Origin: a virus
Direction: 5' to 3' (one strand)
DNA: 64,000 nucleotides
Virus record (IMG/VR): IMGVR_UViG_3300037091_000121
Span: 3,203 to 67,202 of that record
Shown: in pieces, positions 17,981 through 49,872 of the stretch
How the letters are laid out: every line of letters starts with the position of its first letter
Numbering within the stretch: the first letter of the stretch is position 1
Program-made: the position numbers and the translations under genes
The notes under the pieces: generated by a model
The model's database searches: none
Seen by the model: only the letters and a program-made list of their open reading frames with translations
What the model was told of the DNA's origin: nothing

Positions 17981-17985
17981 CTGAT

Positions 17986-34190: not shown

Positions 34191-34295
34191 CTCCTTTGTG
34201 GTCAAACATCAGTGATGGCCTAGTCTACCGGCATGGGCCTTGGTTGTCAATCCCTCATTTTGCACCCAGTGTATAGGTATGATATGATATATGTC

Positions 34296-34661: not shown

Positions 34662-34900
34662 GCTACCAGAGACCCCATAATGAGCCTGCCCGCCCCCAGA
34701 GCATCCGCAACAGCATCACATATGAACCTGACCGCCAAAACATGCCGGTTCAAAAGTGCTGTAGGGTCCCTCGGTGGGTGTCAGAGGCAATCCTCCAATT
34801 CGCAGAGATCCACAATCAAAGTGAATCGGCCGTGATGAGAACAGCGTTAATGGACTTTGCTTCAGGGTTGCTTGAAAACAAGGACAGGGTTGAGCCGTGA
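34658..34900 (+). CDS. Ribbon-helix-helix-like regulator
   Basis: CRVPRWVSEAILQFAE...SESAVMRTALMDF. Confidence 0.55.
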   Translation: MSYQRPHNEPARPQSIRNSITYEPDRQNMPVQKCCRVPRWVSEAILQFAEIHNQSESAVMRTALMDFASGLLENKDRVEP

Positions 34901-34985
34901 TTGCTCAACCCTGTCCTTCCATACCCTGCCCGACCGGGCCACACCAGACCTAGCCATTCCCCGCCCCGCCCAGCCATTCCGTACC
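34880..34985 (-). ncRNA. Family-1 pentamer guide-like RNA A (13 GGH-NN units + 16-bp hairpin)
   Basis: GGTac GGAat GGCtg GGCgg GGCgg GGAat GGCta GGTct GGTgt GGCcc GGTcg GGCag GGTat. Own promoter 35023-34995; hairpin 34918-34880. Confidence 0.85.
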
Positions 34986-35019
34986 CAACACTATAGTATA
35001 CCTAGATGAGGGTTGGTTG

Positions 35020-35667
35020 TCAATCCCTCAAAATCTCACAACTGCAAACCTGAAACCGTCCATAGCTAGGGCGAAAATCACCCACTCCGACCAGCTTTCC
35101 CGCTTGTGTAAGCACATCCCGAAGCACTTGCGGTTCGATATACTCTGGCGTCAACACAAGGAAGATGACTTTCGCCCTCCAACCTTTCTCAACCGCCGGC
35201 CGCTGCCGTGTGATGCCGTTACGCTGAACCACAACTCGGCGCTGATCGAGATAGCTCCAATCCGAGAGGGTTTTACCCGCCAGAGTGATAGGAGCCAGTT
35301 CGGTTTCCACAATCAGACCTGCTTTGAAGAGATCCATTGCGCTCTTTCTTGGTGAGCGAGGGTCTTGCCGAAACTTGGCTGCCCAAACGCAAGCCATTCG
35401 CAAATACTCTCCCGGCAATGCAATCTCGCCTTTCTCCGTTCGGTATACGTAGCTGTTCACGTTGTCCGACTTCTTGGCATCGCTCCCCTTGGCTGCTTTT
35501 GACTTCTCCTCTACTGCCTCACAGTTCCACCGATGGAATAGAATGGGTGTCGTGCCCTCAACCTCCACCTCGCAGCGATAGGGAAACGCCAAAAGATCCT
35601 CTGCGCCGTTGGAAACCTCCTCCAGCGCTGGCATAACATTACGACCATTCAATTTTGTAGCTACCAT
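35020..35667 (-). CDS. RAMP/Cas7-fold-like RNA-binding protein 1 (Vipr-like), 215 aa
   Basis: VEGTTPILFH, IALPGEYLR and the Gly-rich C-terminal loop VGVGDFRPSYGRF parallel RAMP motifs. Start placed at ATG 35667 (AAAGGA RBS); the ORF-track extension is the repeat array. Confidence 0.75.
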   Translation of the reverse strand: MVATKLNGRNVMPALEEVSNGAEDLLAFPYRCEVEVEGTTPILFHRWNCEAVEEKSKAAKGSDAKKSDNVNSYVYRTEKGEIALPGEYLRMACVWAAKFRQDPRSPRKSAMDLFKAGLIVETELAPITLAGKTLSDWSYLDQRRVVVQRNGITRQRPAVEKGWRAKVIFLVLTPEYIEPQVLRDVLTQAGKLVGVGDFRPSYGRFQVCSCEILRD

Positions 35668-35691
35668 AATAGTTTTCCTTTCAAAAAACCC

Positions 35692-35826
35692 TAACCTTAC
35701 CAAACCCCACCGGACCGGGCCGAACCCTACCACTGCATGCCACGCCGCACCCTTCCGGACCATGCCGATCCTTGCCTCTCCGGGCCGCGCCTCGGCTCAC
35801 CGCACCGCTCCTCGCCACGCCACACC
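35692..35826 (-). ncRNA. Family-1 pentamer array B (27 GGH-NN units) in the leader of RAMP-like gene 1
   Basis: 25 of 27 pentamers begin GG; strict 5-nt phase. Confidence 0.85.
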
Positions 35827-35869: not shown

Positions 35870-35967
35870 AAAAAATAGGCCCATGGTTACACCATGGGCC
35901 TGACGGTAAAGAAGGAGTGTGTTGTGTTAAGCAAGTGGAGTATACCAGATCGAGGGTTGGTTGTCAA
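35870..35967 (-). ncRNA. Promoter-terminator-bounded ~60-nt sRNA with anti-SD core
   Basis: TTGACA-N17-TATACT (35967-35939), then CACTCCTTCTT, then hairpin AGGCCCATGG/CCATGGGCCT + U6. Confidence 0.55.
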
Positions 35968-36021: not shown

Positions 36022-36131
36022 GGCAGGGCGTGGCGGGGACAGGCGGGGTGAGGCGCGGCCTGGTGCGACGAGGCGAGGAATGGCAAGGCATGGGTATCTC
36101 ACCCCAAGGAGAAACCCTTGGGGTGAGATAC
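36022..36131 (+). ncRNA. Family-1 pentamer guide-like RNA C (14 units + 16-bp hairpin)
   Basis: GGCag GGCgt GGCgg GGAca GGCgg GGTga GGCgc GGCct GGTgc GACga GGCga GGAat GGCaa GGCat; promoter TTGCTT-N17-TATACT at 35984-36012. Confidence 0.85.
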
Positions 36132-36154
36132 AATTATTAGGAAGGGGTCATAAA

Positions 36155-36694
36155 ATGGCTATAGATCAAAGGCATGTTGTAAACATAAACGGTAAACTTT
36201 ATCTCAAATACTCCGGTGTCCTTGAAGCGGCGACAGAGGCAGGATTGAAATCTTTGGAAGTTGAGATCATCCAGTTGCCTTGTGCAGATAATGGAAATAC
36301 AGCAGTTTGCAAAGCCATTGCTATTCTAGAGAAAGACGGGGTAGTAAGACGGTTCATAGAGATTGGAGATGCTTCTCCTCTCAACGCTTCTAAAATGGTT
36401 ATCAATGCCACAATCCGCCTTGCATCCACAAGAGCGAAAGGACGGGCGCTCCGAGATGCGGTTTGTCATGGCGAGGCTTTGAGCGATGAAATCCCAGAGT
36501 TAGAGCCAGCTCCACAGAACCGAGAGTGGACGCCGGCCAAAGAGGCAAGCCCTCTCGTTCGCGATCAGTTTTGCCAATGGGAGGGATGCGGGGTGGAACT
36601 CCCGCCGGCGGTAGTCACGTTCTCCAAAAGGAAGTATAACCTGAGTCTCTGCCGCGACCACCAGCTGGCAACGGATGCCAAGAAAGCACAATGA
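36155..36694 (+). CDS. Rad52/22-like single-strand annealing protein with C-terminal Zn-ribbon
   Basis: INGKLYLKY.G.L...GDASP.N....A.IRLASTRAKGRALRDA; start reassigned to ATG 36155. Confidence 0.65.
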   Translation: MAIDQRHVVNINGKLYLKYSGVLEAATEAGLKSLEVEIIQLPCADNGNTAVCKAIAILEKDGVVRRFIEIGDASPLNASKMVINATIRLASTRAKGRALRDAVCHGEALSDEIPELEPAPQNREWTPAKEASPLVRDQFCQWEGCGVELPPAVVTFSKRKYNLSLCRDHQLATDAKKAQ

Positions 36695-37224
36695 TGAACT
36701 GGCAAGAGAGATGTGATGCGAGGAAGCGAATAGAGACCACCTTGAGCGACGCGCTGCATTCTACTTACGCAAGAGATGCCGCCCCGCTGTGGCGAGAAAC
36801 GGCACGTCTTGCGATGGCAATGGCTGCCGAGTGCGAGGATCAGTTTCAGCAGAAGGTTGTCCTCACCATCCCTGGGGATGTGGCCAGAGACCTCTCTCCT
36901 AACCTGCGGCTGCACTGGAGAGAAAGAGCCAATAGAACCCATAGGTGGAGAGCGATGGCTCGACTAATATGGCAGTCTGAAGGAAGCGTCCGTTTTAAGC
37001 CGGGGGTTTCAATTCATATCACTGTAAGACGTGGAAGGCTGGTGGATCGAGATAATTGCATCTCGTCCTGCAAGGTCATATTAGACTCGCTGTGGGGTGA
37101 TGACGGGATGCTAGGTGCGGATGATGCAAGGTGGGTGAAGTCTATCGAGGTAATTCAGGAGACAGGTGGGAAATGGACAAAGCATCCGGAAGTCAAAGTC
37201 GAAGTGGCAGGGGAAGTCGAATAG
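36691..37224 (+). CDS. RusA-like Holliday junction resolvase
   Basis: LSPN...HW..R, DRDN....K..LDSL, DDARWV motifs. Confidence 0.65.
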   Translation: MMNWQERCDARKRIETTLSDALHSTYARDAAPLWRETARLAMAMAAECEDQFQQKVVLTIPGDVARDLSPNLRLHWRERANRTHRWRAMARLIWQSEGSVRFKPGVSIHITVRRGRLVDRDNCISSCKVILDSLWGDDGMLGADDARWVKSIEVIQETGGKWTKHPEVKVEVAGEVE

Positions 37225-37568
37225 CCCATCTGAGCAACGAGGATCTGATCGTTAAAGATGAGCCGGTTCGAATTCCTAGCCGGAAAGGTTACTCAAAGAC
37301 CAACCCTGGGCCAGTGTTCGTTTGGTTCTGCCGGAATAAGCACACGTCTAATATGCTTATCGAGGCATTGAAGCAAACTGCATATGGCGAGTGGAAATCA
37401 ACTCCCAGGCAGGCTAGATCTCACGGGAAATTCAGTGGATGCGCCTGGGTATTAAAGTCCTGGGGGCTGACAGAAGCTGAGTATAACGCCATGCAAAGGG
37501 TCGCTGTTAAGTTAGACCCTACTGCGTCGAATATGGTTTGGGATGAGGCGGGTCAGTGCTATGTTTAG
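37131..37568 (+). CDS. Hypothetical protein (true start probably near 37221)
   Basis: ORF track; contains KQTAYGEWKST, matched by guide D. Confidence 0.55.
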   Translation: MGEVYRGNSGDRWEMDKASGSQSRSGRGSRIAHLSNEDLIVKDEPVRIPSRKGYSKTNPGPVFVWFCRNKHTSNMLIEALKQTAYGEWKSTPRQARSHGKFSGCAWVLKSWGLTEAEYNAMQRVAVKLDPTASNMVWDEAGQCYV

Positions 37569-37605
37569 GGGATTGACAACCAAGGCTCATTCCGGTATAA
37601 TATGG

Positions 37606-37709
37606 TGCAAGTCCAGGCACGGCCAGGCTAGGCGGGGCGAGGATGGGCAAGGCATGGCACGGCAAGGTGAGGAGCAGCAGCTTGGATACCTAATATCCAG
37701 GCTGCTGCT
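37606..37709 (+). ncRNA. Family-1 pentamer guide-like RNA D (13 units + hairpin)
   Basis: TGCaa GTCca GGCac GGCca GGCta GGCgg GGCga GGAtg GGCaa GGCat GGCac GGCaa GGTga; promoter TTGACA-N17-TATAAT at 37573-37601; terminator hairpin + TTTT. Confidence 0.85.
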
Positions 37710-38325
37710 ATTTTCAGGCAATCAGTGCTATGTGTAGACCTACTTGGATCGACACTGGGGTCCACTATCGCGGCCGAAGGGTTGTGGTGAGTCAATACGA
37801 TGGCACGATGGCTTTACAAGACACTGGAGGAAACCTGGAGAGCGTTACAGAGGAACTGGAGGATCTTGTTACCGACATCCTGATAATGGTTGAGCAGGTT
37901 AAGTATATGGACAAGGATGTGCTTCAGCAGCAACTTGAAGATAACAGAAGTAAGGGGAATTGATATGAGTGTAATAGATCATCACGCAGAGGAGAGGTTT
38001 CATTCTATGGTTCTGCTGGCGACATCAGAACGCGTTAGGCGCATACTCACGGCTGCTCTCCGGCGTCCACCCACTCCTCGCGAGATGACCCGAGCTATGC
38101 GGGCAGCAGAGGAGAATGATATGGTGGAGAAAGGGCTATGATAACGAAGCATCAGCTTATCACTGCTTTACAGGAATGTCCTGATAATGCCCAGGTGTTC
38201 TTCTGTGTTCCGCACCCGGAGAGTGTTGAGGACTTCCTAACCGCTTACCTGGCCCAGGTGGAATACGCTCACGATGAGGACTGCACTCCGTTCATCCGGG
38301 TTTATCTAGAGTCGGAGAAGGGGCT

Positions 38326-39141
38326 ATGAAGAGCAGCTTTTTGGCGTGGGCACCATTCCTATCGTCGTCTATTATGTCAGGGATTTGGTACTTCATCGGG
38401 TGGAAAGATGGGCGTAGTTTTGAGAGAAAGAAGTTTAACAAAAAGTTCGCTCCTTGGAGAGATGTGCCCCCTGATTCCAAACGCATAGATATGACAGATA
38501 AGGTGGGGGGCTATTGTGTTAAATGGTGGAAGCCTTCCAATCGCGGCTTCACAATTTTGGAATTACTCGTAGTAGTGGCAATCATAGCGATACTTATGGC
38601 CCTTCTTTTCCCGGCTTTCGCAGCAGCAAGGAGGCGAGTGCTGCAAACGTCGTGTGCTTCCAATCTTCGTCAGCTTGGTATGGCCATCTCGATGTATGCC
38701 CAGGACCACGACGGCTATCCGCCTATTGGTGGATACAATTACATTCCTCCAGCCCCTGCCCCGCAAGTATGGAACAGGTCGGACTGGGAAGACGGCCTGG
38801 TTGCGCTTGCTTACGTCAATAATTATAATCTATTTCGATGTCCTTCTGCCTCCAACAAGGATTACCGTTCAGCTTATGGAGTGAACCGATGGATTTTAGG
38901 ATGGGGGATCTCACAGTTATTAGACGCACCACCGTTCCCTAGCAATACTCTTTTGGCTACTGAAAAACAAGGTTCCGATTGGCCGGTTTGGTTACCTACC
39001 GAGCAGACAGGGAATCCTTACTACTTCCCCTTGGACCCCCGTCATAACAATCAACTCAACATTCTTTTCGTGGATGGACACGTAGGAAAGTCCATCATAG
39101 GGGAATTGATCGAGAGCAGCAACATCATTTGGAGATGGTGA
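38326..39141 (+). CDS. Prepilin-type N-terminal cleavage/methylation protein, DUF1559/H-X9-DG family (start uncertain)
   Basis: RGFTILELLVVVAIIAILMALLFPAF..AR....SCASNLRQLG.A..MYAQD, C-terminal RHNNQLNILFVDGHV. Confidence 0.9.
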   Translation: MKSSFLAWAPFLSSSIMSGIWYFIGWKDGRSFERKKFNKKFAPWRDVPPDSKRIDMTDKVGGYCVKWWKPSNRGFTILELLVVVAIIAILMALLFPAFAAARRRVLQTSCASNLRQLGMAISMYAQDHDGYPPIGGYNYIPPAPAPQVWNRSDWEDGLVALAYVNNYNLFRCPSASNKDYRSAYGVNRWILGWGISQLLDAPPFPSNTLLATEKQGSDWPVWLPTEQTGNPYYFPLDPRHNNQLNILFVDGHVGKSIIGELIESSNIIWRW

Positions 39142-39168
39142 TTGGCACGGTTCTTGTATATACTATGG

Positions 39169-39268
39169 TGCTAGTAGGGATGTTGCAATGCCGAGATGGG
39201 TGTTGCATGGCGGGTCTGGGAATAGCAAATCACAGTAGAAGGGTGGATGTGTAGGCATCTACCCTTCT
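39169..39268 (+). ncRNA. Family-2 guide-like RNA E (12 NNY-NN units + ATCACAG + hairpin)
   Basis: TGCta GTAgg GATgt TGCaa TGCcg AGAtg GGTgt TGCat GGCgg GTCtg GGAat AGCaa ATCACAG; upstream TGGCAC-N5-TTGT and TATACT. Confidence 0.8.
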
Positions 39269-39433
39269 TATATTTTAGAGAGAAGATGGAATGAATCACC
39301 TTGTCTACCTTTGGAGGCGCTATCGGGGCCGATGCTACCGATGCGGCAGGGTTCCTCCTCGCAGCCGAGGTAGGGTCTACTGCGAGGAGTGCTTTGCCAT
39401 CATCGTGCAAGAGTTCAAGATGAGTATGTCCAA

Positions 39434-39646
39434 GTGAGTGACACACAGATCATTAAAGGAGACTGTAGGGAGGTGCTTCAAACTCTCCCATCAGAGTCGG
39501 TTCACATGGTAGTTACCTCTCCGCCATGCGGAACCGTTGGCCGCGTAGCAACCCGGCTCGGACGCCGATCCATCTTGATAGAACTCAATCTAGAGTACGC
39601 AGAAATGGCGGCCCGAAGAACTTCCCAGAAAGGACTTGGGATCTGA
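39434..39646 (+). pseudogene. Internally deleted N4/N6 DNA methyltransferase
   Basis: The N-terminal GDCREVL..LP.ESVHMVVTSPP is joined directly to the C-terminal GT...VA.RLGR..I.IELN.EY; the catalytic Y and the DPF.G motif are missing. Confidence 0.75.
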
Positions 39647-39678
39647 TGTCAAGGCGCAACCATGTGAGTTTGGTTGAG

Positions 39679-40143
39679 CTACGTGAATGTCACATCACAA
39701 ACGAAGTTGAGGCTACCTCCGACGAAAATCACAATTGTCGGGGAGGTCCCTAGCGGTAACAATAATGGGCACCCGGCCGGATTGGTTCCGGGAGGTGAAA
39801 CGGCCGGAGGGATCGGAGGTTGGTGCGGAGTTATGAGAATACCGACATCGCCTGCAGAACCCTTGAGGGTCAATTCTGGCGGTATATTTGGAAGTGGAGG
39901 GATCGGTGGGACGGTAGGGTTAGGGATGGTTGGAGGTAGCTCAAGTAGCATTGCAATGGAGCCAGTCGGAATTTGGATGACGTTATTTCCTGGAACCAAT
40001 GTGAGAGATTGATGTGAGCCGGTGAGTCCTGCCCCTGGAGTAAATCGGACAGGCAGAAGCGTTCTGTCTATTACGACCCCACCGGAGTCGATTACGGTAA
40101 CGGCAACCTTCACTTCACACAATGCACTCATTAGCTTACCCAA
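39679..40143 (-). CDS. Pro-rich hypothetical protein
   Basis: ORF track. Confidence 0.5.
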   Translation of the reverse strand: MGKLMSALCEVKVAVTVIDSGGVVIDRTLLPVRFTPGAGLTGSHQSLTLVPGNNVIQIPTGSIAMLLELPPTIPNPTVPPIPPLPNIPPELTLKGSAGDVGILITPHQPPIPPAVSPPGTNPAGCPLLLPLGTSPTIVIFVGGSLNFVCDVTFT

Positions 40144-40649
40144 GACCTTCCTTTGACGACATTTCGGATCTGTATGTTGCTAACCCCATATTCACGCCCC
40201 AGGCCCCTATACGTGACGCCTCCTGCCGAGAAGCGCTCTCGGATCTCTAAAACCTTCTTCTCATTGAGCTTTGCCGAAGGGTGCGCCTCACCTCGGCGTC
40301 TACGCTCGGGTGGGCAGTGTCCTTGAACCCACATCTCCGGGTGCCGTTGCCATATATTTCGACCCTTGGATGCGCAGTCCTTGGCGTTGTCCGATCCTGT
40401 CCCGAGGAATAGATGGGCAGGGTTACAGCAAGGCGGATTGTCGCAGCGATGCAAGACCATAAGCCTGTCGGGAATGTCACCGAACTCCAGAACCCATGCT
40501 ACCCGATGAGCGCGCCACTGTTTTCCCATAAACCTGAATCGCCCGTAGCCTTGAGGCACGCAGGCCCTCGTCCAATTCCAGCACACATCATTATCCCCAT
40601 CGGGAATGTCCACCCCGGACCAAAAATAATCAGCAGTGTTCAGTCTCAT
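40131..40649 (-). CDS. HNH homing endonuclease
   Basis: CWNWT...GYG.F...AHRVAW...VLHRCDNPPCCNPAHLFLGT..DN + HTH tail. Confidence 0.9.
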   Translation of the reverse strand: MRLNTADYFWSGVDIPDGDNDVCWNWTRACVPQGYGRFRFMGKQWRAHRVAWVLEFGDIPDRLMVLHRCDNPPCCNPAHLFLGTGSDNAKDCASKGRNIWQRHPEMWVQGHCPPERRRRGEAHPSAKLNEKKVLEIRERFSAGGVTYRGLGREYGVSNIQIRNVVKGRSWVS

Positions 40650-40690
40650 GCCTATATTGTATCACGTGAAGTGAAGCTATGTCAAGTACC

Positions 40691-43600
40691 TTATCCTCCT
40701 GATTGCTTCGTTAGTGATGTAATCTTGTCGCCAAGGGCTCGATATAACAGATATGCCCCCTTGACCTTCCTCTTGGCATCATCGGTCAACTGGTTCTTGG
40801 CATCGTAACTATTCGCTGCCTTCATAATCTGCGTTGAATAGTTGGAGGCTGACTTCATCCTGAAGGCCAGCTTCCCTCTATCAATAATCCTGGCGCTGGA
40901 TATATCCGGCTGCTGCGTGTAAGGGTTGTCACTGGAAGAATACCCTTTCTGTATACCCTGGACATACGATCCGTAACCCTTGAATTTGTCCGTCAGGGTT
41001 CCTACCATCGCCTTCTTGCGTGCGTCAGTCATTGGTGGTCCGTAGACTGGTAGTCCAAACGCTTTCATCAAGGAATGAAGCCTGGTTTCCGGAACAGCAT
41101 ATTCAGAAGCAGAATCAGTTACTCCCTCATTTGATTTCCCTATTTTGGAAGCATAACGAATCAGTGAGGCCACGGTAGGAGAATTTTTCTTGGCGAATTC
41201 CCATTGCTCCGGGTAAATACCGAGTGTGCTAAGCTCTGGAGATCCGGGCTCGTGGAGTTCTCTGCCAGTTCCTGCATCTCGGTTAGACGCCAGCGCATAT
41301 ATAGCGGGCCCTGCCAGAGGGATAGAGAACAGCTTGTCAGACCAGGTTCTCTGGTCTCCTCCTGAATCTGGCCGTGTCGGTTGCATCATATCAAGAAAAG
41401 GAGTGAACGGGAACCACCTCCCAATATCAACGACATTCCCTTTCCCGATGGGAACAGTCATTGCCCCTCGCTGATACCTTGGCCTGTCCTCTCGATCATC
41501 CTCTGAACCGGGGTTCTCCGCCTCTATATCTCGCCGAAGGCGTGGATACCTTGCCAACAAGTCAGGACGGCGAATCGCGGTCCTGATAGCGCTAGCCATC
41601 GACTTCGTTGGATACGCATTGAAAGCCCATAGCCCTGACCGATTCAAAGCCTCTAGTATAGCAGGCTGGTCAGCATAGTCGAACAGATGATCCTTTACCA
41701 ATTGAGCTGCCGCCTCGTCACCAATCTTACCTCTGGATGCTTCGAACAACGCAAGCTTTACCACCTGGTCAGCAACTGCATGCGCTACTGGACCGGTAGA
41801 CATGAAGGCTTTGTAAGCATCCCTCGGGTTGGTGAACTCCGGTGGAACATATATCCTTCGGCCACCAATGCTCACGAACTTACCAGCCCCGGCCAGGTTT
41901 GCTGCTGACCTTCCACCCGCCCCTGATTCTATCTGGTCCATCACGCTGCTTCGCCAGGTGGGGAAGTGTTCGTCTAGAGTCCGCATCGCCTCGGTGTCTA
42001 CACCCTTTCGCAGCCAGTTCGTAATATCCCGTCCAGCGGTAGCCAACGGCTTTGCCAACCTCAAGGCGCCTAGATTGGCAGTCTTCATTCCAATCTCTGC
42101 CTGATTCAGACGGGAACCAATCGAGGTTAATAGGCCAGTCGGGTTCATTGTGAGCATAAAACGCTTCACCTCAGAGGGGAGATGCTGAATAGCTTTCTTT
42201 ACACCTCGCACCATCTCGTCCTGCTCTGCCTGAACCGCCCGTTTCGATATCCCCTGGACAGCCCTCAAGACAGGGCCAGGAACCTGCTTGCCAGCTAGTG
42301 GGCCATACTTCGGCTCGTCAGGGACCGCTAACCATCCCCCTTTCGGTTTCTCGCCCTTACCGAGAGGTTTGGCGAACGAGTCAGCAACCTCAAGAGCTTG
42401 GGCGTTGGCCGCTGACTTTATGGCCCTCCGGCCTTCCTCTGAACCTGCCGGAGCCTCTATCTGCACCAACCCATGTTCATGCTTCGGAACCGACTTCCTA
42501 TCGGCGGTAGAAGCGAAGTAGTTCAAGGAGCCTTTTCTGGTTCCCTTGGGAGGTCCTTTCTCCGCAATGATCTGCTTTAACTCCTCGGAGGTGATCCCCT
42601 TCGTTGCGGCCATCTTCTCGGCCTTTTCAGGATCAACCTTGAATACCCCACGTAGCATCTCTTGGAACGACCGCGTTCCCTTGGCTACTGCCATAGGGCC
42701 TGCCGGTGCTGTAGCGGCTGTCTTGGCCTCCTGGAGTGGCTTTGGGGTTTCTGTAGGGAGTGCTGGCTTCGGTGTCTCTACAGGCGCTACAGTGGCGTCC
42801 TCTGCCTCTTTTGCTAGCTTCCTGTTCCAATGGTCCTCAATCCCCTGCGCCTGCTTGGGATTGTTCTTGCGCAATCGGCTTATCTGTTTCTGGATGTATT
42901 CCGGGATGCCCTCTGTTGGGCTGCTTGCAGACTGACCCCGCTCGGTTTTGGTTGGCTCTACGGTAGATGTCTTCGTAGATACTGGTTCCGAAGGAGGCTT
43001 TGCCTCTGGATGGAGTTGACGGACTGGCTTCTTGGCCGGGGTTGGCTTGGTCGTCTCTACTCCTTGCTTCTCTGACCATTGCTGTGCTCGTTTCTGCAGA
43101 TCTTCTGCGGTTGGTGTTTTGGCTCCCTTGGCTACAGTTTTCTCCTTGGGGGTAGCATGTTTCTCCTTGACCGCGACGAGCTTAGGCTTCTCCGAAACAG
43201 TAGCAGGAGGATGTTTCTCTCCAATGACTTTAGGAACTTCAAGGTTCCCTGCCTCTGCGTCTCTTGCCAAGCCCTTGATGTGAGACCTAACCTGCTGCCC
43301 AATAGCTCGTATCTCTTCATCGGTTGCGCCGGGATAGTAAGCCCGAAGAAGGTGCATATAGTGACTGTCAGCGCTGGATGGTTTGGACTGCGAGACTATA
43401 TAGGCAGACTTGTCCAATTCGTTATCGAATATCAGTGTAAATAATTTCTTCCCATATCCGTAGCGAGGCTTTGCGGATGCCAGTTGAGCAGGAAGCGAAA
43501 AGCTCTCACCGGGTTTAATGTGCGCGGTGGATGGGAGAGAGACTAATGGCTTCGCGCCCTTGGCAGGAGGAGTGATAGGCTTGCCATAGGCATCTAGGAA

Positions 43601-45754
43601 GCCCGCTTTGACCGGAACAGGTTTATCTGGTTCTATAGGCGGATGAGAAGGCAGTCCAGCAGCTTCCCTTGCTTCTCTTTGCTCCTTCAGAACCTGCCAT
43701 TGGGGCTTTGGCATAGGCACATGCTCAACAGGAGGTGCCGCTGGCGCGACGTGAGGAGTCGCTGTAGGCGCTGAAGGAGGAACGGTAGGAGTAACCGTTG
43801 GTGAGGTGCCAGGAGCCGCAGGAGGGGCCTCTGGTAGCGCTGCTGGTGGATGGGGGGCATTGGTATGGGCCGGGTGAAGTGCCTCTGGGGTATGGGCTTC
43901 CGGCTGCATCCCAGGGAAGCCTTGCTCCTTGGTCCAACCCATCACCTTGTGGAAGAACCCTCTTCGGAACGCGGTTCGCTCTGGAGATGCAGTTTGGTGC
44001 AAAGGCCCCGATAGCTTCCTGTCTCGAAGGGAGTTATGTCGAAGAAGTATCTTGAGGTTTTTGTCTGCCTCCGCTATGGCCTGATCCCCAAGTTCTTTAA
44101 CCAGGTTAGGATCAACTCCCAATTTCTTTGCGTGTTCTATACCTACATCGGGTGAGTGAATATATGTGTCAATCGCATCTGCCAGCCGACTGCGGCCGTG
44201 GTTCTCGTTTCTATGGGCTGTCTCTAATGCTTCCTGCTGCGGATCATCCCCAGAGGATTTAACTACCGCGTTACGTATCTTCGTCCCCACCTTGCCAGCA
44301 GAGAGCAGGTTAGTCGCTATGTTGTTTCTTTCTGCTGCCCTTACCGTTCGGCCCTCCGCTGCTTTCTTGCCAATCCCCACCCAACCGCCCGCTACATCTA
44401 AATGACCAGCCTCTGTTGGATACTTCTCGGCAATCTTTGCACCACCCTTCGCCAATGCTTCTCCAAGGATGGGCTTGGCTACCTTTGCTATCTTACCCGT
44501 AATTGCACTTACCCCATGCCCAGTTGCCACGTTAACAGGGTTGAATTCCCAATCGAGCAGATAATCTGCTATACCTAGCGCTTTATAGGTAAGAGTGTTT
44601 CGCTTGACCCCCAATCCTTCCGCACCAACCCGGAGAGCGTTAGGAGGCACTGCGCCACCTTCAGAGACCACCTTCAGGGCTTTGCCTACCGCTTGAACAG
44701 GATTAGGACCTCCCCTTCCCTGACCTCTCTTAACCGCTGCCGATATCCCTGCAGGATAGACGCTGGCCCCCATATCAAACAATCTCTGCACCGCTCCACC
44801 GATCTTAACTGGCAGCTCGGTGGCTCTCTCAATCCTGTTTCTCGCCGGAACTGACATCCTGCCAGTGTAAGGCTCAATAGAAGCCTCTTGGGGTTCTCCT
44901 GGCTTTGGTGGAGCGGAATGTGAGGTCTGATGCGGAACACCCTGATACATTGGGGACCCAGAGTAATGCTCTCTTTCAGTAGCGGGGTCGATAATGTGCG
45001 GCGTCCCATTGATCGTCTTGTAGTATTGGATCTTGCCAGTGCGATCTCTAAACGCCCTTCCGCTTACATGAGTGGCCCCAAACGATGCCCAAGGGTATCT
45101 CCTGATCGATTGAGGGACATCAGGCGTGAACTGAACTCCAGTAGGAGACGCAGCAGCAGGAGGGGCGGTGGCTCTACTTGGCGAAGTCGGAGTGAATAGA
45201 TGACCAAATGATGTCTTTTTAGGAGTGCTAGGGGTTTTAGGAGTGCTGGGAGTAGGGGGCGGCGGAGATTCTTGTTGAGTGGGCTCTGGTGACGTGAAAA
45301 GATGCCCAAAGGTAGGAGGATCTCCAGCGCCCTTTGATCCAACAAAAAGATGGCCGAGACGGGGAGGATCTCCAACACCTTGACTGCCTACATAATCAAA
45401 GTGTACCGGATCGACTTCCCCTGCGAACGCCCACCCATGAGGGGCAAGTATTTTAGCTAACTTCTTTTGTTCTTGTAGATTACCGCCTGCGGAGACATCC
45501 CAAGCTAGGCCCTTCTGGTGTTGGCTCTCTCCGGGTTTGGCTACAGGATTAGGGTTGTTTCCCCTGCCGGCATAGAGACGCTCTTGCATTTCGCGGGTCC
45601 GATGACCGCCGTACGGACTCATGGTCAGATTAAGGCCCGCTGCTTCAGCGTCCTTAATGCCCCGCATTGCCGCCGCCCTTGCATCTGGGTGCATACCCCG
45701 AAGCATCCCTGGCGTTATCGGCCTATTGTCATCTATACCTGGACCTGGCATCAA
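40691..45754 (-). CDS. Large internal virion/ejection protein with N-terminal M15-type peptidoglycan peptidase
   Basis: RTREMQERLY...AKPGESQHQKGLAWDV...DPVHF; 1687 aa with a low-complexity middle. Confidence 0.75.
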   Translation of the reverse strand: MMPGPGIDDNRPITPGMLRGMHPDARAAAMRGIKDAEAAGLNLTMSPYGGHRTREMQERLYAGRGNNPNPVAKPGESQHQKGLAWDVSAGGNLQEQKKLAKILAPHGWAFAGEVDPVHFDYVGSQGVGDPPRLGHLFVGSKGAGDPPTFGHLFTSPEPTQQESPPPPTPSTPKTPSTPKKTSFGHLFTPTSPSRATAPPAAASPTGVQFTPDVPQSIRRYPWASFGATHVSGRAFRDRTGKIQYYKTINGTPHIIDPATEREHYSGSPMYQGVPHQTSHSAPPKPGEPQEASIEPYTGRMSVPARNRIERATELPVKIGGAVQRLFDMGASVYPAGISAAVKRGQGRGGPNPVQAVGKALKVVSEGGAVPPNALRVGAEGLGVKRNTLTYKALGIADYLLDWEFNPVNVATGHGVSAITGKIAKVAKPILGEALAKGGAKIAEKYPTEAGHLDVAGGWVGIGKKAAEGRTVRAAERNNIATNLLSAGKVGTKIRNAVVKSSGDDPQQEALETAHRNENHGRSRLADAIDTYIHSPDVGIEHAKKLGVDPNLVKELGDQAIAEADKNLKILLRHNSLRDRKLSGPLHQTASPERTAFRRGFFHKVMGWTKEQGFPGMQPEAHTPEALHPAHTNAPHPPAALPEAPPAAPGTSPTVTPTVPPSAPTATPHVAPAAPPVEHVPMPKPQWQVLKEQREAREAAGLPSHPPIEPDKPVPVKAGFLDAYGKPITPPAKGAKPLVSLPSTAHIKPGESFSLPAQLASAKPRYGYGKKLFTLIFDNELDKSAYIVSQSKPSSADSHYMHLLRAYYPGATDEEIRAIGQQVRSHIKGLARDAEAGNLEVPKVIGEKHPPATVSEKPKLVAVKEKHATPKEKTVAKGAKTPTAEDLQKRAQQWSEKQGVETTKPTPAKKPVRQLHPEAKPPSEPVSTKTSTVEPTKTERGQSASSPTEGIPEYIQKQISRLRKNNPKQAQGIEDHWNRKLAKEAEDATVAPVETPKPALPTETPKPLQEAKTAATAPAGPMAVAKGTRSFQEMLRGVFKVDPEKAEKMAATKGITSEELKQIIAEKGPPKGTRKGSLNYFASTADRKSVPKHEHGLVQIEAPAGSEEGRRAIKSAANAQALEVADSFAKPLGKGEKPKGGWLAVPDEPKYGPLAGKQVPGPVLRAVQGISKRAVQAEQDEMVRGVKKAIQHLPSEVKRFMLTMNPTGLLTSIGSRLNQAEIGMKTANLGALRLAKPLATAGRDITNWLRKGVDTEAMRTLDEHFPTWRSSVMDQIESGAGGRSAANLAGAGKFVSIGGRRIYVPPEFTNPRDAYKAFMSTGPVAHAVADQVVKLALFEASRGKIGDEAAAQLVKDHLFDYADQPAILEALNRSGLWAFNAYPTKSMASAIRTAIRRPDLLARYPRLRRDIEAENPGSEDDREDRPRYQRGAMTVPIGKGNVVDIGRWFPFTPFLDMMQPTRPDSGGDQRTWSDKLFSIPLAGPAIYALASNRDAGTGRELHEPGSPELSTLGIYPEQWEFAKKNSPTVASLIRYASKIGKSNEGVTDSASEYAVPETRLHSLMKAFGLPVYGPPMTDARKKAMVGTLTDKFKGYGSYVQGIQKGYSSSDNPYTQQPDISSARIIDRGKLAFRMKSASNYSTQIMKAANSYDAKNQLTDDAKRKVKGAYLLYRALGDKITSLTKQSGG

Positions 45755-45758
45755 TCCC

Positions 45759-47852
45759 CTATCGTCCCTTTGGAGCCCCGACGACCACTTTCTCGCCGTC
45801 CACCTCCATCCAGTAGCTTTTCCCTCCGATCCTGGCTATCCCTCGGTTTCCAGTAGTCCCCCAGACGTTTGTTACCCCCTTGGGGAAGGATAGCCCCTTC
45901 CACTCCCCTGGCACTCTTGACGAGAAATTGATTGTCTCGTTATTGGCGACAGCGTTTCTCCTGAACTCTTTGTCCGTCATCTTGGCGGTGGGGGCGCTTG
46001 GCGCTGCTGTCTGGGCACCCATGCCAAGGTGATTCTTCTTGATCCGAGTTATGAGGTCTGAAAAGTAAGGTTTTGATTTCCCATCAAGACCCTTAAGGAT
46101 ATCTGTAGACGAAATTCCTCTACCTATGAACGCCTGCCATACCTGCCACTCATTGCTCCCTTTCTTGAATGGGTTTGGTTCAGCCCTAGTCTTATCCCAT
46201 AGCGAGGCATCAATACCTTTCGGAGCCGGAACATTCAGCTTGGGGGAGAAATCTTGCCCTTGATAGGTATACTTTGCTCTGTCTTCAGGAGGAAGAGGCT
46301 TTCCTACTGCCCTGGCAGGAGATGCAGTTGCTCGTGCTGGATGTGCCGATCTAGGCGTAGCCTCGGTTCCTGGGAATGCCGGAACAGCAGTGTCCTTCGT
46401 CACTGGAGGAAGGACAGGAGGGCCACCAGCCGCCCTTCTCGGTGCAGTAGCCCCTTGCTTCGGCTGATTCGCTTGGTAGTATGCATAGTCCAGCTTCGTC
46501 TTCACCGAGTCCTTCAGATCCTCTCGCTGCGACGGAGTAGAACGCTCCCATACTCGCTTGAACGCCCCTGCTCTTGCCTTTATACCGTCAGGAGTAGCCG
46601 GGTCATAGTCCGGGGCTGGAGGCTGCTGGAAACCTTGCGAGTGCATACCAGTAAGTATCTTCATCGCAGAGGTGCGTTCCTTGCTAGTACTGCCCTTCGT
46701 TCCCGGAGCCGTCATCGCAGCTCCCATATTGCGATGGAGATACTTCTGGAGCCCAGGGTCCATAGTTAGACCAGCAGCCTTATATACTGCATGTAATTTC
46801 CTGATCTTGGAGGCTCTCACATCCGGGTCCATCGCCAGGAGCTTTTTCTCGTCACCTAGCTGGCTCTCCAGTTTGGATGCTTCCCTGCCCGCTGCTGCCT
46901 TCTGGTCAATCCCGGATCTGCCTCTAGGGTGGGCCTCTCGATACCGATCTGACCTTTCGCGCTCTCTTTGCCCTTGCTGTGCCACATCTAGATGGCCTCT
47001 GCCTAACTCAACCTGGGCATCTCTATACCCTTGTACAGCCCTAGCGTTGATCTCTGCGTCCGAAAGCCTTTCGCCAAACAGCTTCTTTTCGTATGCCCTC
47101 CAGTCTTGCAGGTTCATCTGCGCCTTTTCAGCATTAGAGAGACGCTTATCAGCACGCTTTGCTGCTGCTTCTGCTGCTGTCTGCTTCACCGTTGGCTGGG
47201 TGGCAATGGGAGCCTTTAATCTGGAAGGGGTTACAGGTGCGGGTGGAGTAAAAGTGGCGGTTGCTGGCGAAACGCCGTCTGTGGCTGGAGGAGGCGTTCC
47301 TGTAATCGAAGGAGGAGGTGCCGGAGTAGAGGTTGTATCATACATTCCTTCCGTTCCAGAAATGTTTAGACCTCGGGCCTTCCCTTTCCAGGTCTCCGCT
47401 TCAGCGTCAGCCTGATCTGCAAGGCCATTGTAGTATTCCTGGTATTTTTGTCTATCAGCAGGAGCCATACCCATTACCTGGGCAGATACTGCCATCTCTC
47501 GGTAATGTCTCGATGCAAGCCCTGATTGGTTGGCGCCATTCGTGTAACGTCCTAATAGAGTATCATTAGTTCTATCGGTTTCACCTTTAACACGACGCTT
47601 CTCTTCCTCACCCTGGTATGTAACCCGATCCGCTTCTGCCTTCTGCTGATCTGCTATCCTTTGCTTCTCAATCTCTCTCATGGAATCGACGTTCTTCTGC
47701 GCCTGAAGCTGCCTCGCTGCTTCTTGGTTCTTCTCTGCCTCCGCTTGTTGCTGTTGGGCCTGTGCCTGTTCCCCCATGGCCTTGCCGACCATGAGGCCCT
47801 GAGTCACCTGGGCAGCGGCACTGAGGAAGGACGATAATCCAATTGACGCCAT
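45759..47852 (-). CDS. Putative ejection protein
   Basis: Gln/Ala coiled-coil N-terminus; lies next to the large virion protein. Confidence 0.55.
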   Translation of the reverse strand: MASIGLSSFLSAAAQVTQGLMVGKAMGEQAQAQQQQAEAEKNQEAARQLQAQKNVDSMREIEKQRIADQQKAEADRVTYQGEEEKRRVKGETDRTNDTLLGRYTNGANQSGLASRHYREMAVSAQVMGMAPADRQKYQEYYNGLADQADAEAETWKGKARGLNISGTEGMYDTTSTPAPPPSITGTPPPATDGVSPATATFTPPAPVTPSRLKAPIATQPTVKQTAAEAAAKRADKRLSNAEKAQMNLQDWRAYEKKLFGERLSDAEINARAVQGYRDAQVELGRGHLDVAQQGQRERERSDRYREAHPRGRSGIDQKAAAGREASKLESQLGDEKKLLAMDPDVRASKIRKLHAVYKAAGLTMDPGLQKYLHRNMGAAMTAPGTKGSTSKERTSAMKILTGMHSQGFQQPPAPDYDPATPDGIKARAGAFKRVWERSTPSQREDLKDSVKTKLDYAYYQANQPKQGATAPRRAAGGPPVLPPVTKDTAVPAFPGTEATPRSAHPARATASPARAVGKPLPPEDRAKYTYQGQDFSPKLNVPAPKGIDASLWDKTRAEPNPFKKGSNEWQVWQAFIGRGISSTDILKGLDGKSKPYFSDLITRIKKNHLGMGAQTAAPSAPTAKMTDKEFRRNAVANNETINFSSRVPGEWKGLSFPKGVTNVWGTTGNRGIARIGGKSYWMEVDGEKVVVGAPKGR

Positions 47853-47863
47853 TTCAAATCACC

Positions 47864-49015
47864 TCAAGATGGAAACTGAAGCCCACCTGGCATTGACAGT
47901 CTGTTCAGCATAGCCTCTTGGGGGCGCCTAGTCTGGTTCCGAACGGAATTTTCACCACCTGGCTCATTGCCTCTTGCGCCGGCGCCTTGCATACCGGGAG
48001 GGCTCTGTGGAGAAGCCATCCCTGACGCGGTGTATCCAGGCAGGGGCATCGCAGGGGCATCACCAGCCCCGGCGCTAGATGGCTTGCGCTTCCTTTTCGG
48101 CTTATCTTTGCTCTTGGCCTTCAGCTTCGCCATGTCCAGGTGGTGAGCGATGATCTGATGGATAATGCTCATCGCGTGCATCATCGGATCGTGTTTCGGC
48201 TGGGGCTGTGCAGGGGCATCTCCTGCACCTGCCATACCCTGCCCCAGGTTCCACATACTTGTATCATGCGGGTTCATTCCACCACCAGCGCCAGGAGGGT
48301 TTAGAGAACCAGCCGTTCCGTTAGGAGAACCTGCTCCACCCTGCAAAGAGGCGAACGGATCGTATGGTTGCGGGATAGGGTTGGTGGAAGGGAAAGGGCT
48401 AGCGTTACCTGCACTGACCGCATCTGATGAGGATGTGCCGTCAGGAACCTCACCCCCACCCTTGTTCGCCTTGTTGTAAGCATACGCCTGCGCTACCCCA
48501 GACAGCGATTGGCCGAGATTGTTAGGAGGTGTAGCCCCTGGCCCACTCGCCATATTGTAAGCCTGCTGGTTCACTCCAGAAGCCTCTAGGAGCGCACTCC
48601 TCCGGGCCGCGATAGCGTCAGCCATGTGTTGTTCGCCGAGCGCCATTCTGTTCGACGCATCATTCTGCTGAAGATTAGCCATTTGGTCATTAGCACCACC
48701 AGTGGATACTCCACTGGGATTACCAAATGCGGAAAGCGAATTAACATTGGAACGCTCTGCTTGGCCTTGAATTCCTTGTGATTGTGCCAAAGAGTTTAAA
48801 TCTTGTTGGTTGCTCATTGGCGAGGAGGTGCCGTAGTTGTATAGCTGGTTGGCTATCGCTCTCTGCTGCTTTAGGGCTGCCTGCTGCGCCGCAGACATCT
48901 GCCCGCCGCCGCCTCCTAGAAGGCCCGCGAAACCAGACAGGGCAGCCCCTACGGGGCCTCCCGTGGCGAAACCAGCACCAGCACCCAAAATACCACCTAC
49001 TGGGCTTACAGGCAT
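47864..49015 (-). CDS. Putative ejection/pilot protein
   Basis: Gly-rich N-terminus GGILGAGAGFATGGPVGAAL..AGLLGG and Gln/Asn-rich body. Confidence 0.6.
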   Translation of the reverse strand: MPVSPVGGILGAGAGFATGGPVGAALSGFAGLLGGGGGQMSAAQQAALKQQRAIANQLYNYGTSSPMSNQQDLNSLAQSQGIQGQAERSNVNSLSAFGNPSGVSTGGANDQMANLQQNDASNRMALGEQHMADAIAARRSALLEASGVNQQAYNMASGPGATPPNNLGQSLSGVAQAYAYNKANKGGGEVPDGTSSSDAVSAGNASPFPSTNPIPQPYDPFASLQGGAGSPNGTAGSLNPPGAGGGMNPHDTSMWNLGQGMAGAGDAPAQPQPKHDPMMHAMSIIHQIIAHHLDMAKLKAKSKDKPKRKRKPSSAGAGDAPAMPLPGYTASGMASPQSPPGMQGAGARGNEPGGENSVRNQTRRPQEAMLNRLSMPGGLQFPS

Positions 49016-49079
49016 CTTGCGCCTCCTCCAAAACTAGAGGGGTTGACAATCAACCCCCACCCCGGTATACTCCATTGTT

Positions 49080-49173
49080 CTACAATCGATGCATGTCATG
49101 GCTCTGAAACGCCTTGCCGGTCCAGGAACGGCAAATCACAGCGGATGGGTTAGGGTTTTCCCTTTCCCATCCG
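49080..49173 (+). ncRNA. Family-2 guide-like RNA F
   Basis: Promoter 49043-49071; ATCga TGCat GTCat GGCtc TGAaa CGCct TGCcg GTCca GGAac GGCaa ATCACAG + CGGATGGG/CCCATCCG hairpin. Confidence 0.75.
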
Positions 49174-49872
49174 AACCTTCATCAATGCTGGAGACGACTC
49201 CGCCCGCTCTCTCTTGATGTTAAGTTCGAACGGCTTTGGCTCTGGTGCCTGCCTTGGCTCTGACCGAGGAGGCATATCATTCGATACCGTCGGTCGCTCT
49301 CTCCCTGCTTTGGCAGGATTGGCTTCAGGAGACTTCAAGGTCATAAACGGGTTCAGAGACCTTGGCTTCCCGATTGGCTTCAATGACTTCTCGTTAGGGA
49401 GGTAAGCCTTCGGGCCACCAGGGCCACCTCGCTTACGGGGCGATTCCGGGTTGTTGCTAGGGATCTTCGCTGACGGTTTTTTCCTTCTGGTGTAAACTCT
49501 TGGAGTTGTTTCTGGCGTTAGGGCTTGAACCCCTCCGGTCAATGGCACGGGCGGATCTCCTGACCCAAAAGACACAGGCTTGACCACTGGCTTTCGCCCT
49601 TTCGTTTGACCTAGAGGCTTGTTAAGCAAAGGGGCACTTACTTTTCCAAAACCACCCCTTGTAGGATGAAGACCTTTAGGACCGTTTGGCCCTGGCGGCT
49701 TCATGGCGGGCGCATCGCCAACCCCAGACATCCGACCAAGCACTGACTTCACCTCGGCAGGCTTGCCCTTGACTTTGACGGATAGCTTATTACTATCCTC
49801 TGGCTTCTTCTTGGTGGCTGGTCGCTTCGGGCTTCCGAAGTCTGTTGGTGCTGGCATAGTGGCCCTCCTCAT
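49150..49872 (-). CDS. Basic Lys/Pro-rich protein (start probably ATG ~49857)
   Basis: GAGGAGG RBS before MPAPTDFG; shares the GxGD[AP]P motif with the ejection proteins. Confidence 0.6.
   Translation of the reverse strand: MRRATMPAPTDFGSPKRPATKKKPEDSNKLSVKVKGKPAEVKSVLGRMSGVGDAPAMKPPGPNGPKGLHPTRGGFGKVSAPLLNKPLGQTKGRKPVVKPVSFGSGDPPVPLTGGVQALTPETTPRVYTRRKKPSAKIPSNNPESPRKRGGPGGPKAYLPNEKSLKPIGKPRSLNPFMTLKSPEANPAKAGRERPTVSNDMPPRSEPRQAPEPKPFELNIKRERAESSPALMKVRMGKGKP

What the first reader, a model, noticed from the sequence alone, without database searches (positions are those of the whole stretch)
36461..49464. Self/non-self by codon-family swaps: guides seem to target rival alleles while the resident allele is recoded
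No decoded guide matches this genome perfectly. Several mismatches keep the amino acid but switch six-fold codon family: Leu CTN (guide) vs TTA at 34482 and TTG at 36479; Ser TCN vs AGC at 49456-58; Arg AGR vs CGT at 49435-37. These are the only synonymous changes that can defeat a wobble-skipping code. Inference: each guide is linked to an immune allele and silences or excludes the homologous allele of a co-infecting relative. That is an RNA-guided counterpart of homing-endonuclease marker exclusion. Attenuated autoregulation is the alternative.
Basis: inference. Interest (0 to 1): 0.9.

Follow-up and report, generated by a model that had tools for sequence, protein, structure and literature searches.

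The report
Phage guide RNAs aimed at relatives' alleles
This phage carries a recently described RNA-guided silencing system (VIPR), and its guides fit the versions of neighbouring genes carried by related phages better than its own copies, suggesting allele-specific warfare between relatives.

Summary
The "guides" are real. Window 34.9-37.7 kb holds a VIPR locus: a Cas7-like Vipr gene (35023-35667, minus) and four arrays of GG(Y)NN pentamers. This system was described in three 2026 bioRxiv preprints.

No guide matches its own genome. Full-length identity is 0.61-0.71, which is chance level. Taken alone, only the 36461-36492 near-match is borderline.

Homologues change the picture. Each of the three hairpin-tailed guides fits relatives' alleles of the gene beside it better than the resident allele:
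- A3: 11 of 11 codons in P0122, against 18 of 22 nt in the resident.
- A1 and A4: the same direction, but weaker.

The pattern recurs in 272 related loci. Eight guides have confident targets (31 hits, against 0 for shuffled guides). Six of the eight also have a mismatched homologous site 64-729 nt from the guide in their own locus.

The codon-family part of the finding is minor. Of 17 DNA-verified discriminating codons, 16 are amino-acid changes and one is a Ser TCG/AGT swap. The two Leu swaps in the window exist but are not significant (p about 0.08). The claimed sites at 49435-49458 were not reproduced.

Verdict: the linked-immune-allele idea is supported; the recoding mechanism is mostly not.

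The parts
35023..35667 (-). vipr gene: 215-aa Cas7-like RAMP protein
   Evidence: phrog_4652 at E 5e-16. AF2 model with pLDDT 81.5. Foldseek top hits are Cas7/Csm3 of type VII and III, E 6.5e-6. The profile hits PDB chain 36pp_D 'SUSP1 Vipr protein' at E 4.4e-11. At least 6998 homologues.
34906..34985 (-). vrRNA A1 repeat tract, 16 pentamer units of which the last 2-3 run into the hairpin
34995..35023 (-). promoter-like site for A1 (TTGACA, 17 nt, TATACT)
   Evidence: 11 of 12 matches
34880..34918 (-). A1 3' tail: 16-bp hairpin followed by a T-rich run
   Evidence: z -4.39
35687..35826 (-). array A2: 28 units with 2 imperfect units, in the 5' leader of vipr, no hairpin tail, no target found
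35877..35967 (-). promoter (35939-35967) plus intrinsic-terminator-like hairpin (35877-35901) upstream of A2 and vipr
36022..36096 (+). vrRNA A3 repeat tract, 15 units
36094..36131 (+). A3 3' tail: 16-bp hairpin
   Evidence: z -5.39
36155..36694 (+). resident gene (179 aa, no Pfam or PHROG family, C-terminal Cys pairs) whose relatives' alleles A3 fits
36461..36493 (+). resident 'immune' site for A3: 18 of 22 guide-read bases; codons TGT, TTG and AGC break the match
37616..37675 (+). vrRNA A4 repeat tract, 12 units
37573..37601 (+). promoter-like site for A4 (TTGACA, 17 nt, TATAAT)
   Evidence: 12 of 12 matches
37673..37709 (+). A4 3' tail: 16-bp hairpin
   Evidence: z -4.11
37170..37568 (+). 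resident gene (about 132 aa, no family; start uncertain) whose relative's allele A4 fits better
37377..37403 (+). resident site for A4 units 1-9 (7 of 9 residues; homologue P0246 has 8 of 9)
34233..34661 (+). resident HTH_17 / excisionase-like gene whose relatives' alleles A1 fits better
34470..34496 (+). resident site for A1 units 4-12 (12 of 18 bases by my count; includes TTA at 34482)

Best explanation
The window carries a VIPR (Viral Interference Programmable Repeat) system. It consists of a Cas7-like Vipr protein and small RNAs made of GG(Y)NN pentamers. The NN pairs of those pentamers read a DNA target while skipping every third base. Three guides (A1, A3, A4) each have their own promoter and a 16-bp hairpin tail. 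Each is directed at the allele that close relatives of this phage carry of the gene lying 200-400 nt from that guide. The phage's own copies differ at two to four guide-read codons, so the phage does not silence itself. Most of those differences are amino-acid replacements; two are Leu CTN-to-TTR differences. The likely use is transcriptional silencing of the matching early gene in a co-infecting or resident related phage. Keeping guide and resistant allele together means recombination cannot separate weapon from immunity. SHOWN: the parts, the family membership, the better fit of relatives' alleles, and the linkage here and in related loci. INFERRED: expression, binding, silencing, the benefit, and that four mismatches are enough for immunity.
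For: System identity. Arrays flank vipr on the same strand in 70 of 80 viral loci and in 75 of 80 genome loci. The third unit position is C or T in 5529 of 6204 units. Hairpin tails. Mechanism as published: 10.64898/2026.04.26.720920 (Results and Discussion read) and 10.64898/2026.04.26.720927 (section 6). A3: units 2-12 imply Val, Gly, His/Gln, Gly, Asp/Glu, Ala, Leu, Ala, Asp/Glu, Asp/Glu, Ile/Met. P0122 (65% identical) reads VGHGEALADEI, 11 of 11. P0123 and P0124 score 10 of 11. The resident reads VCHGEALSDEI. 108 of 119 homologues score 6 or less. Resident Cys104 and Ser110 occur in 0 of 119 homologues. A1: four homologues read GGIYLIPR against resident GGIYLINR. A4: P0246 reads TQYGEWKST against resident TAYGEWKST. 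Specificity: among 256 held proteins, each guide hits only its neighbour's family, and shuffled guides gave 0-1 hits. Generality: in 2.03 Mb of related loci there were 31 hits at 19 of 20 or better, against 0 for shuffled unit order. These come from 8 guides, and 6 of them have an own-locus homologous site 64-729 nt from the array. Own sites score 15-16 of 20 (or 20 of 26) against 19-20 of 20 (or 24 of 26) in rivals. The database share homologous to each own locus is only 0.028-0.086. L023 and L070 aim at each other's alleles.
Against: No DNA of the rival alleles of the three window genes could be fetched. The window evidence is therefore at residue level, and the rivals' Leu codons are unknown. 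Even the best rival fits only the core. Over all 14 units P0122 would reach at most 22 of 28 (0.79), just under the published 0.8 cut-off, so the true target may be an unsampled allele. A1 and A4 are weaker, with 7-8 of 9 residues and few homologues (4 and 1 informative). A2 (28 units) has no target. A shuffle test on 197 arrays found no general excess of own-locus near-matches: 6.1% had p of 0.05 or less. The related-locus database holds only vipr flanks, which favours finding targets that have homologues in the guide's own locus. There are no expression data. Peat runs showed no variant alleles at guides or sites.
Confidence: 0.7

Rival explanations
1. Attenuated autoregulation: the partial matches are functional. 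Each guide weakly represses the resident gene beside it, for example to time early genes, and the better fit of relatives' alleles is incidental.
For: A3 lies in the 5' leader of the gene it nearly matches. On the 11-unit core the resident scores 18 of 22 (0.82), near the published 0.8 cut-off. All three sites are within about 400 nt of their guide.
Against: Over the full guide the resident scores 0.64, which is chance level. Across related loci the own site is always the worse fit, 15-16 against 19-20 of 20. The discovery paper reports that perturbing NN pairing abolished silencing, and found no self-target at 80% or more.
Confidence: 0.12
2. Footprint of guide birth: new guides are made from the neighbouring gene by an unknown local process, and the resident allele then mutates away. 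The fit to relatives only reflects that they keep the ancestral sequence, with no ongoing targeting of rivals.
For: Guides lie 64-729 nt from the homologous own site and about 210-410 nt away in the window. Resident Cys104 and Ser110 are unique among 120 family members, so they look derived.
Against: No adaptation machinery is known or seen here. L023 and L070 carry guides against different genes of each other, which fits selection. L220's guide fits 12 different loci at 19 of 20, which suggests a maintained target.
Confidence: 0.1
3. Chance: the own-genome near-matches and the homologue fits are coincidences, and the real targets are satellites or prophages, as in SUSP1 and P. fulva.
For: Own-genome scores are at the shuffle level for A1, A2 and A4. 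There is no general excess of own-locus near-matches. Published targets are mostly satellites and prophages.
Against: An 11 of 11 residue fit of A3 to P0122, with shuffled guides giving 0 hits. Three of three guides hit the family of their neighbour. 31 real against 0 shuffled hits in related loci.
Confidence: 0.08

Closest known systems
VIPR systems (Vipr + vrRNA), SUSP1 and P. fulva type II; bioRxiv 10.64898/2026.04.26.720920 and 10.64898/2026.04.26.720927
   Same: A Cas7-like Vipr protein with a sequence-profile hit to the solved SUSP1 Vipr. Guides of GGY/NN pentamers flanking vipr. A structured 3' tail. A one-base skip aligned with the wobble position. No self-target at 80% or more.
   Different: The tails are three different 16-bp hairpins rather than a conserved pseudoknot. 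Each guide has its own consensus promoter, and guides lie on both strands. One 28-unit array sits in the vipr leader. There is no conserved vap neighbour: the largest flank-gene cluster covers 8 of 80 loci. The targets are homologues of the phage's own adjacent genes, not satellites or prophage switches. I could not assign one of the seven types, because supplements were closed.
Solo vrRNAs and vrRNA-targeting vrRNAs of SUSP1-family phages; bioRxiv 10.64898/2026.10.15.759431
   Same: Guides aimed at relatives' VIPR parts, with a self-match lower than the rival match. The authors read this as avoidance of autoimmunity (section 8). Vipr-targeting guides also occur here (L067, L120, L068).
   Different: [quoted passage not shown] Here the target is a homologue of a gene the guide's own element carries next to the guide. 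Such genes include an HTH regulator, a portal, a DUF669 protein and a Walker-A protein. The words 'allele', 'homing' and 'six-fold' occur 0 times in that paper, and 'allele' 0 times in the discovery paper.
Marker exclusion by phage homing endonucleases (T4 seg/mob type; recalled, no call)
   Same: By analogy, a weapon gene sits next to an allele that is immune to it and acts on the sensitive allele of a co-infecting relative.
   Different: No nuclease is linked to the guides; the HNH gene at 40134-40649 is 2.5 kb away and unrelated to the loci. Published VIPR type II action is silencing, not cleavage, so gene conversion is not expected.
Class 1 CRISPR-Cas Cas7 backbone
   Same: Fold: Foldseek probability 1.00, TM about 0.5. 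A periodic thumb interrupts guide-target pairing.
   Different: There is no repeat-spacer array, no other cas gene among the ten neighbouring genes scanned, and a 5-nt guide period with a 3-nt target period.

Membership tests
VIPR system | Vipr protein: a small single-RRM RAMP homologous to SUSP1 Vipr | tested here: met
   The profile of 34 homologues hits PDB 36pp_D 'SUSP1 Vipr protein' at E 4.4e-11 over positions 33-204. Foldseek finds Cas7/Csm3 at E 6.5e-6. The protein is 215 aa.
VIPR system | vrRNA: 9-16 tandem GGY/NN pentamers next to vipr | tested here: met
   A1 has 16 called units (13-14 before the hairpin), A3 has 15 and A4 has 12. A2 has 28, which is outside the range. The third position is C or T in 89% of 6204 units in related arrays.
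VIPR system | Structured, conserved 3' tail (a pseudoknot in the SUSP1 clade) | tested here: inconclusive
   A1, A3 and A4 each end in a 16-bp hairpin, but the three sequences differ and no pseudoknot was sought. A2 has none.
VIPR system | Targets read with a one-base skip aligned to the wobble position | tested here: met
   A period of 3 gave A3's best hit (18 of 22), against 16 for periods 2 and 4. The fits to homologues are codon by codon. There were 31 against 0 cross-locus hits at period 3.
VIPR system | vap accessory gene beside vipr | tested here: not met
   vipr is followed directly by A1. No flank-gene family is shared by more than 8 of 80 related loci. The discovery paper says loci 'typically' include a vap, so this does not exclude membership.
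VIPR system | vrRNAs expressed as RNAs of about 100 nt, bound by Vipr, and silencing transcription | not testable with these tools
   No RNA run is listed. This needs sRNA-seq, pull-down and reporter assays.
CRISPR-Cas class 1 | Repeat-spacer array and further cas genes | tested here: not met
   There is no such array in the window. Pfam and PHROG scans of ten neighbouring genes found no cas family.
Homing-endonuclease marker exclusion | A site-specific nuclease linked to an immune allele | tested here: not met
   The linked immune allele is met by analogy. No nuclease lies in the locus; the HNH gene at 40134-40649 is separate.

The most novel reading that the evidence does not exclude
VIPR guides and the resistant alleles beside them form poison-antidote cassettes. 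A phage silences the sensitive allele of an early, structural or recombination gene in a related co-infecting or resident phage, and is protected by a few codon changes in its own linked copy. This would make VIPR an RNA-guided system of allelic exclusion that drives mosaic modules through phage populations. The tight spacing (64-729 nt) may also point to how guides arise, namely from the neighbouring gene. That question is open for a system with no known adaptation step.
Probability: 0.45. Interest if true: 0.8.

Novelty: new variant of a known kind. Interest (0 to 1): 0.62.

Why it matters
VIPR was described only in 2026, and its natural targets are known for just a few clades: satellites, prophage switches and other VIPR loci. 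This work adds a simple, testable rule for a very large environmental clade (at least 6998 Vipr homologues). The rule is to look next to the guide. The neighbouring gene names the target family, and the resident copy shows which codon changes give immunity.

That yields natural pairs of sensitive and immune sites. These can be used to measure mismatch tolerance, which matters for using VIPR as a tool.

It also corrects a published statement that escape requires amino-acid change. Leu, Ser and Arg allow synonymous escape, and one Ser case was seen. In practice, though, escape is almost always by amino-acid change.

Finally, it frames competition between related phages as a contest of alleles rather than of whole genomes.

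Tried and rejected
IDEAS CONSIDERED AND DROPPED
- My first ideas for the pentamer arrays were a TRAP-like ring-protein attenuator, a CsrA-type sponge, G-quadruplex arrays and a rut site. I dropped all of them once the fold and the PDB sequence hit named Vipr.

SEARCHES THAT FOUND NOTHING
- Megablast of 30-50 kb against phages: no match.
- Rfam: only two group I introns. tRNAs: none.
- DNA of rival alleles: viral-contig scans with the 179-aa protein, P0122, the HTH alignment and the 132-aa alignment found no relative. The alignment of the 179-aa family gave 32 distant loci (51% identity or less) whose best A3 fit was 17 of 22.
- None of the first 160 vipr loci holds a homologue of the 179-aa protein, so it is not a vap.
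- The closest vipr relatives (L081, L082, L088; 84-86% aa) share only vipr at DNA level. Neither side's guides fit the other above shuffles.
- A2: no hit of 7 of 8 or better in any held protein.
- Own-locus excess: uniform-expectation counts were 321 against 217 at 16 of 22, and 0 against 1.2 at 19 of 22. The shuffle test on 197 arrays showed no excess. I do not use as support, because guide and locus share composition.
- ESM Atlas for the 179-aa protein: only unnamed viral clusters.
- No RNA holder is listed among 10 peat runs.
- Contigs of four runs showed no other letters at guides or sites within 34000-37900. Differences begin at 37912.

TOOLS AND FILES NOT AVAILABLE
- Supplements of the three preprints were not opened. 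They may hold type assignments, target tables and self-score tables that bear on novelty.
- Searches behind 'not in print': (listings), and term finds. The structure paper was not searched for these terms.

Full report
WHAT IS THERE

The genome is one 67,202-bp contig, and the window is bases 3203-67202 of it. It is a phage. It has an SU10-type portal and adaptor, a capsid protein and a helicase.

Between 34.9 and 37.7 kb lie four arrays in which GG recurs every five bases:
- A1: 34906-34985, minus strand.
- A2: 35687-35826, minus strand, 28 units.
- A3: 36022-36096, plus strand.
- A4: 37616-37675, plus strand.

A1 and A4 follow near-perfect sigma-70-like promoters. A3 follows a weaker one that I read by eye (TTGCTT, 17 nt, TATACT, at 35984-36012). 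A1, A3 and A4 each end in a perfect 16-bp hairpin. A2 lies in the leader of the gene at 35023-35667.

WHAT IT IS

The 35023-35667 gene encodes a 215-aa protein.
- It has no Pfam family and falls in phrog_4652, of unknown function.
- It has at least 6998 homologues.
- Its AlphaFold model (pLDDT 81.5) resembles the Cas7/Csm3 backbone subunits of type VII and III CRISPR complexes.
- A profile of 34 homologues hits one solved chain, 36pp_D, named 'SUSP1 Vipr protein', at E 4.4e-11.

That name led to three 2026 bioRxiv preprints (listing). I read these parts:
- 10.64898/2026.04.26.720920: Results, Discussion and methods sections 20 and 27.
- 10.64898/2026.04.26.720927: outline and section 6.
- 10.64898/2026.10.15.759431: outline and sections 8, 9, 17 and 26.

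They describe VIPR. Vipr protomers line up on a vrRNA of 9-16 GGY/NN repeats with a 3' tail. The NN pairs base-pair with DNA while every third target base is skipped, and that base is usually the codon wobble. The result is transcriptional silencing of competing satellites, prophages and other VIPR loci.

The association is conserved:
- 70 of 80 viral loci with a Vipr homologue carry such arrays directly beside the gene on its strand.
- 75 of 80 genome loci do so.

CHECK OF THE OBSERVATION

- No guide matches its own genome. Full-length identity is 0.61-0.71, at the level of base-shuffled guides. The discovery paper reports the same for its own systems.
- The near-match at 36461-36492 is real: A3 units 2-12, 18 of 22 bases, in frame and in the sense orientation. 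Shuffled guides reach that score in 2 of 60 trials.
- The Leu codons TTG at 36479 and TTA at 34482 do face guide units that need CT.
- The codons at 49435-37 and 49456-58 exist, but none of the four arrays aligns there at 55% identity or more.
- With 28% of Leu codons being TTR, two of two has p about 0.08.

THE DECISIVE EVIDENCE: HOMOLOGUES

A3. The gene downstream of A3 (36155-36691) has 119 listed relatives. At the aligned site the resident reads VCHGEALSDEI. The closest relative, P0122 (115 of 179 identical), reads VGHGEALADEI. That is exactly what A3 units 2-12 imply, 11 of 11. P0123 and P0124 score 10, and 108 of the 119 homologues score 6 or less. All of these residues except Leu belong to single codon families, so the rival DNA must match at 21 or 22 of 22 positions. 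The resident's Cys and Ser are found in none of the 119 relatives.

A1. Units 4-12 fit the HTH_17 gene 34233-34658. Four relatives read GGIYLIPR where the resident reads GGIYLINR.

A4. Units 1-9 fit the gene 37170-37565. P0246 (79% identical) reads TQYGEWKST where the resident reads TAYGEWKST.

Specificity and linkage. Over all 256 proteins held, each guide gives hits of 7 of 8 or better only in its neighbour's family, and shuffled guides give 0-1 hits. The three sites lie about 410, 365 and 213 nt from their guides. By my own arithmetic, three sites each within 500 nt of their guide in a 67-kb genome has a chance of about 3e-6.

IS IT GENERAL?

I called 570 arrays in 272 loci plus this genome (2.03 Mb). 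I scanned every 10-unit window against everything, with the arrays masked.
- Hits at 19 of 20 or better: 31. With shuffled unit order: 0.
- These hits come from 8 guide arrays.
- For 6 of the 8, the guide's own locus has a homologous site 64-729 nt from the array. Only 2.8-8.6% of the database is homologous to each of those loci.
- The own site always scores lower: 15-16 of 20, or 20 of 26, against 19-20 of 20, or 24 of 26.

The targets are:
- a Walker-A protein gene (L200);
- a DUF669 gene just upstream of vipr, hit in 12 Phycisphaerales loci (L220);
- a portal gene (L023);
- vipr itself (L067, L120);
- one unnamed gene (L251).

L023 and L070 are related, at about 70% nt identity, and they aim at each other. 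L023's guide fits L070's portal at 20 of 20 against 15 of 20 in its own. L070's minus-strand guide fits L023's allele at 22 of 26 against 19 of 26 in its own.

Two caveats apply. My database holds only vipr flanks, which favours targets that have homologues in the guide's own locus. A shuffle test on 197 arrays found no general excess of weak own-locus matches.

THE CODON-FAMILY CLAIM

It is correct from the standard genetic code that only Leu, Ser and Arg allow a synonymous change at codon positions 1-2. The preprints say escape needs amino-acid change, and 'six-fold' is absent from the competition paper.

In the six DNA-verified pairs, 17 codons differ between own and rival allele at guide-read positions. 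Sixteen change the amino acid. One is a synonymous Ser TCG/AGT swap, in L023.

In the window, five resident-specific differences are amino-acid changes and two are the Leu codons, whose rival state is unknown. Recoding therefore exists but is the exception.

HOW IT MOST LIKELY WORKS

- Shown: the parts, the family, the fit and the linkage.
- Taken from the preprints: Vipr filaments on each vrRNA bind the matching DNA and block transcription.
- Inferred: in a cell that also holds a related phage, A1, A3 and A4 silence that phage's HTH regulator and two early genes. The resident copies escape through 2-4 mismatched codons. Close linkage keeps guide and immune allele together in recombinants.

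Rivals to this reading are weak autoregulation of the resident genes, a mere footprint of guide origin from the neighbouring gene, and chance. I give them 0.12, 0.10 and 0.08.

NOVELTY

The system is known. The following were not found in the three preprints by my term searches, with supplements unseen:
- the rule that guides sit beside an immune allele of their own target;
- the kinds of genes targeted;
- the measured share of synonymous escape.

Lower self-match than rival-match was already reported, but only for vrRNA-targeting guides.

Noticed in passing
window 9568-9797 and 9809-10011 (minus): Two tandem group I introns (Rfam RF00028, 89 and 64 bits) lie just upstream of an ORF (8700-9455) that matches only the C-terminal part of phage capsid models. 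The major capsid gene is probably split by introns. L081 7787-7887 is 85% identical to 9823-9923.
   Followed up: partly
window 38326-39138 (plus): A phage gene with a prepilin N-terminal methylation motif plus DUF1559, a combination I recall as typical of Planctomycetota. 30 of 80 genome records with a Vipr homologue are titled Phycisphaerae, Planctomycetota or Pirellulales. The phage DNA occurs in peat metagenome runs.
   Followed up: partly
window 17983-18025, 26782-26813, 26971-27002, 34219-34261, 34992-35034, 35936-35978 (minus); 37568-37600, 49038-49070, 51524-51556 (plus): A family of near-identical promoter cassettes (TTGACA, 17 nt, TATAcT, with shared flanks) is scattered through the genome. 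Three of them drive the VIPR arrays.
   Followed up: no
window 35877-35967 (minus): A consensus promoter is followed after about 35 nt by a strong terminator hairpin, directly upstream of array A2 and vipr. This could be a short RNA or an attenuator controlling vipr.
   Followed up: no
window 29823-29886: A perfect tandem duplication of a 32-nt unit (TRF score 134) in a region of small ORFs.
   Followed up: no
window 50007-50077 and 50133-50203; 39205-39244 and 49111-49150; 49999, 50245, 51472: Repeated non-coding elements that share a CAAATCACAG core, some with GC-rich hairpins. They may be regulatory sites of the plus-strand gene block.
   Followed up: no
window 40134-40649 (minus): A free-standing HNH homing-type endonuclease gene (PF13392, E 1.9e-13; phrog_1872, E 1.4e-31), next to a 1686-aa ORF whose N terminus looks by eye like a cell-wall peptidase.
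   Followed up: partly
window 37912-37964: In two peat runs the otherwise identical phage contigs carry 14 listed differences (21 per contig) and then run on unlike the window after 37964. This is a mosaic junction at the 3' end of gene 37730-37960.
   Followed up: no
L067 3119-3423; L065 4746-5162; L059 3689-3958: Some related loci carry very long uninterrupted arrays, 61 units in L067 and spans of 270 nt (L059) and 417 nt (L065). These are far beyond the published 9-16 units per vrRNA, so processing or staggered vrRNAs must be assumed.
   Followed up: no
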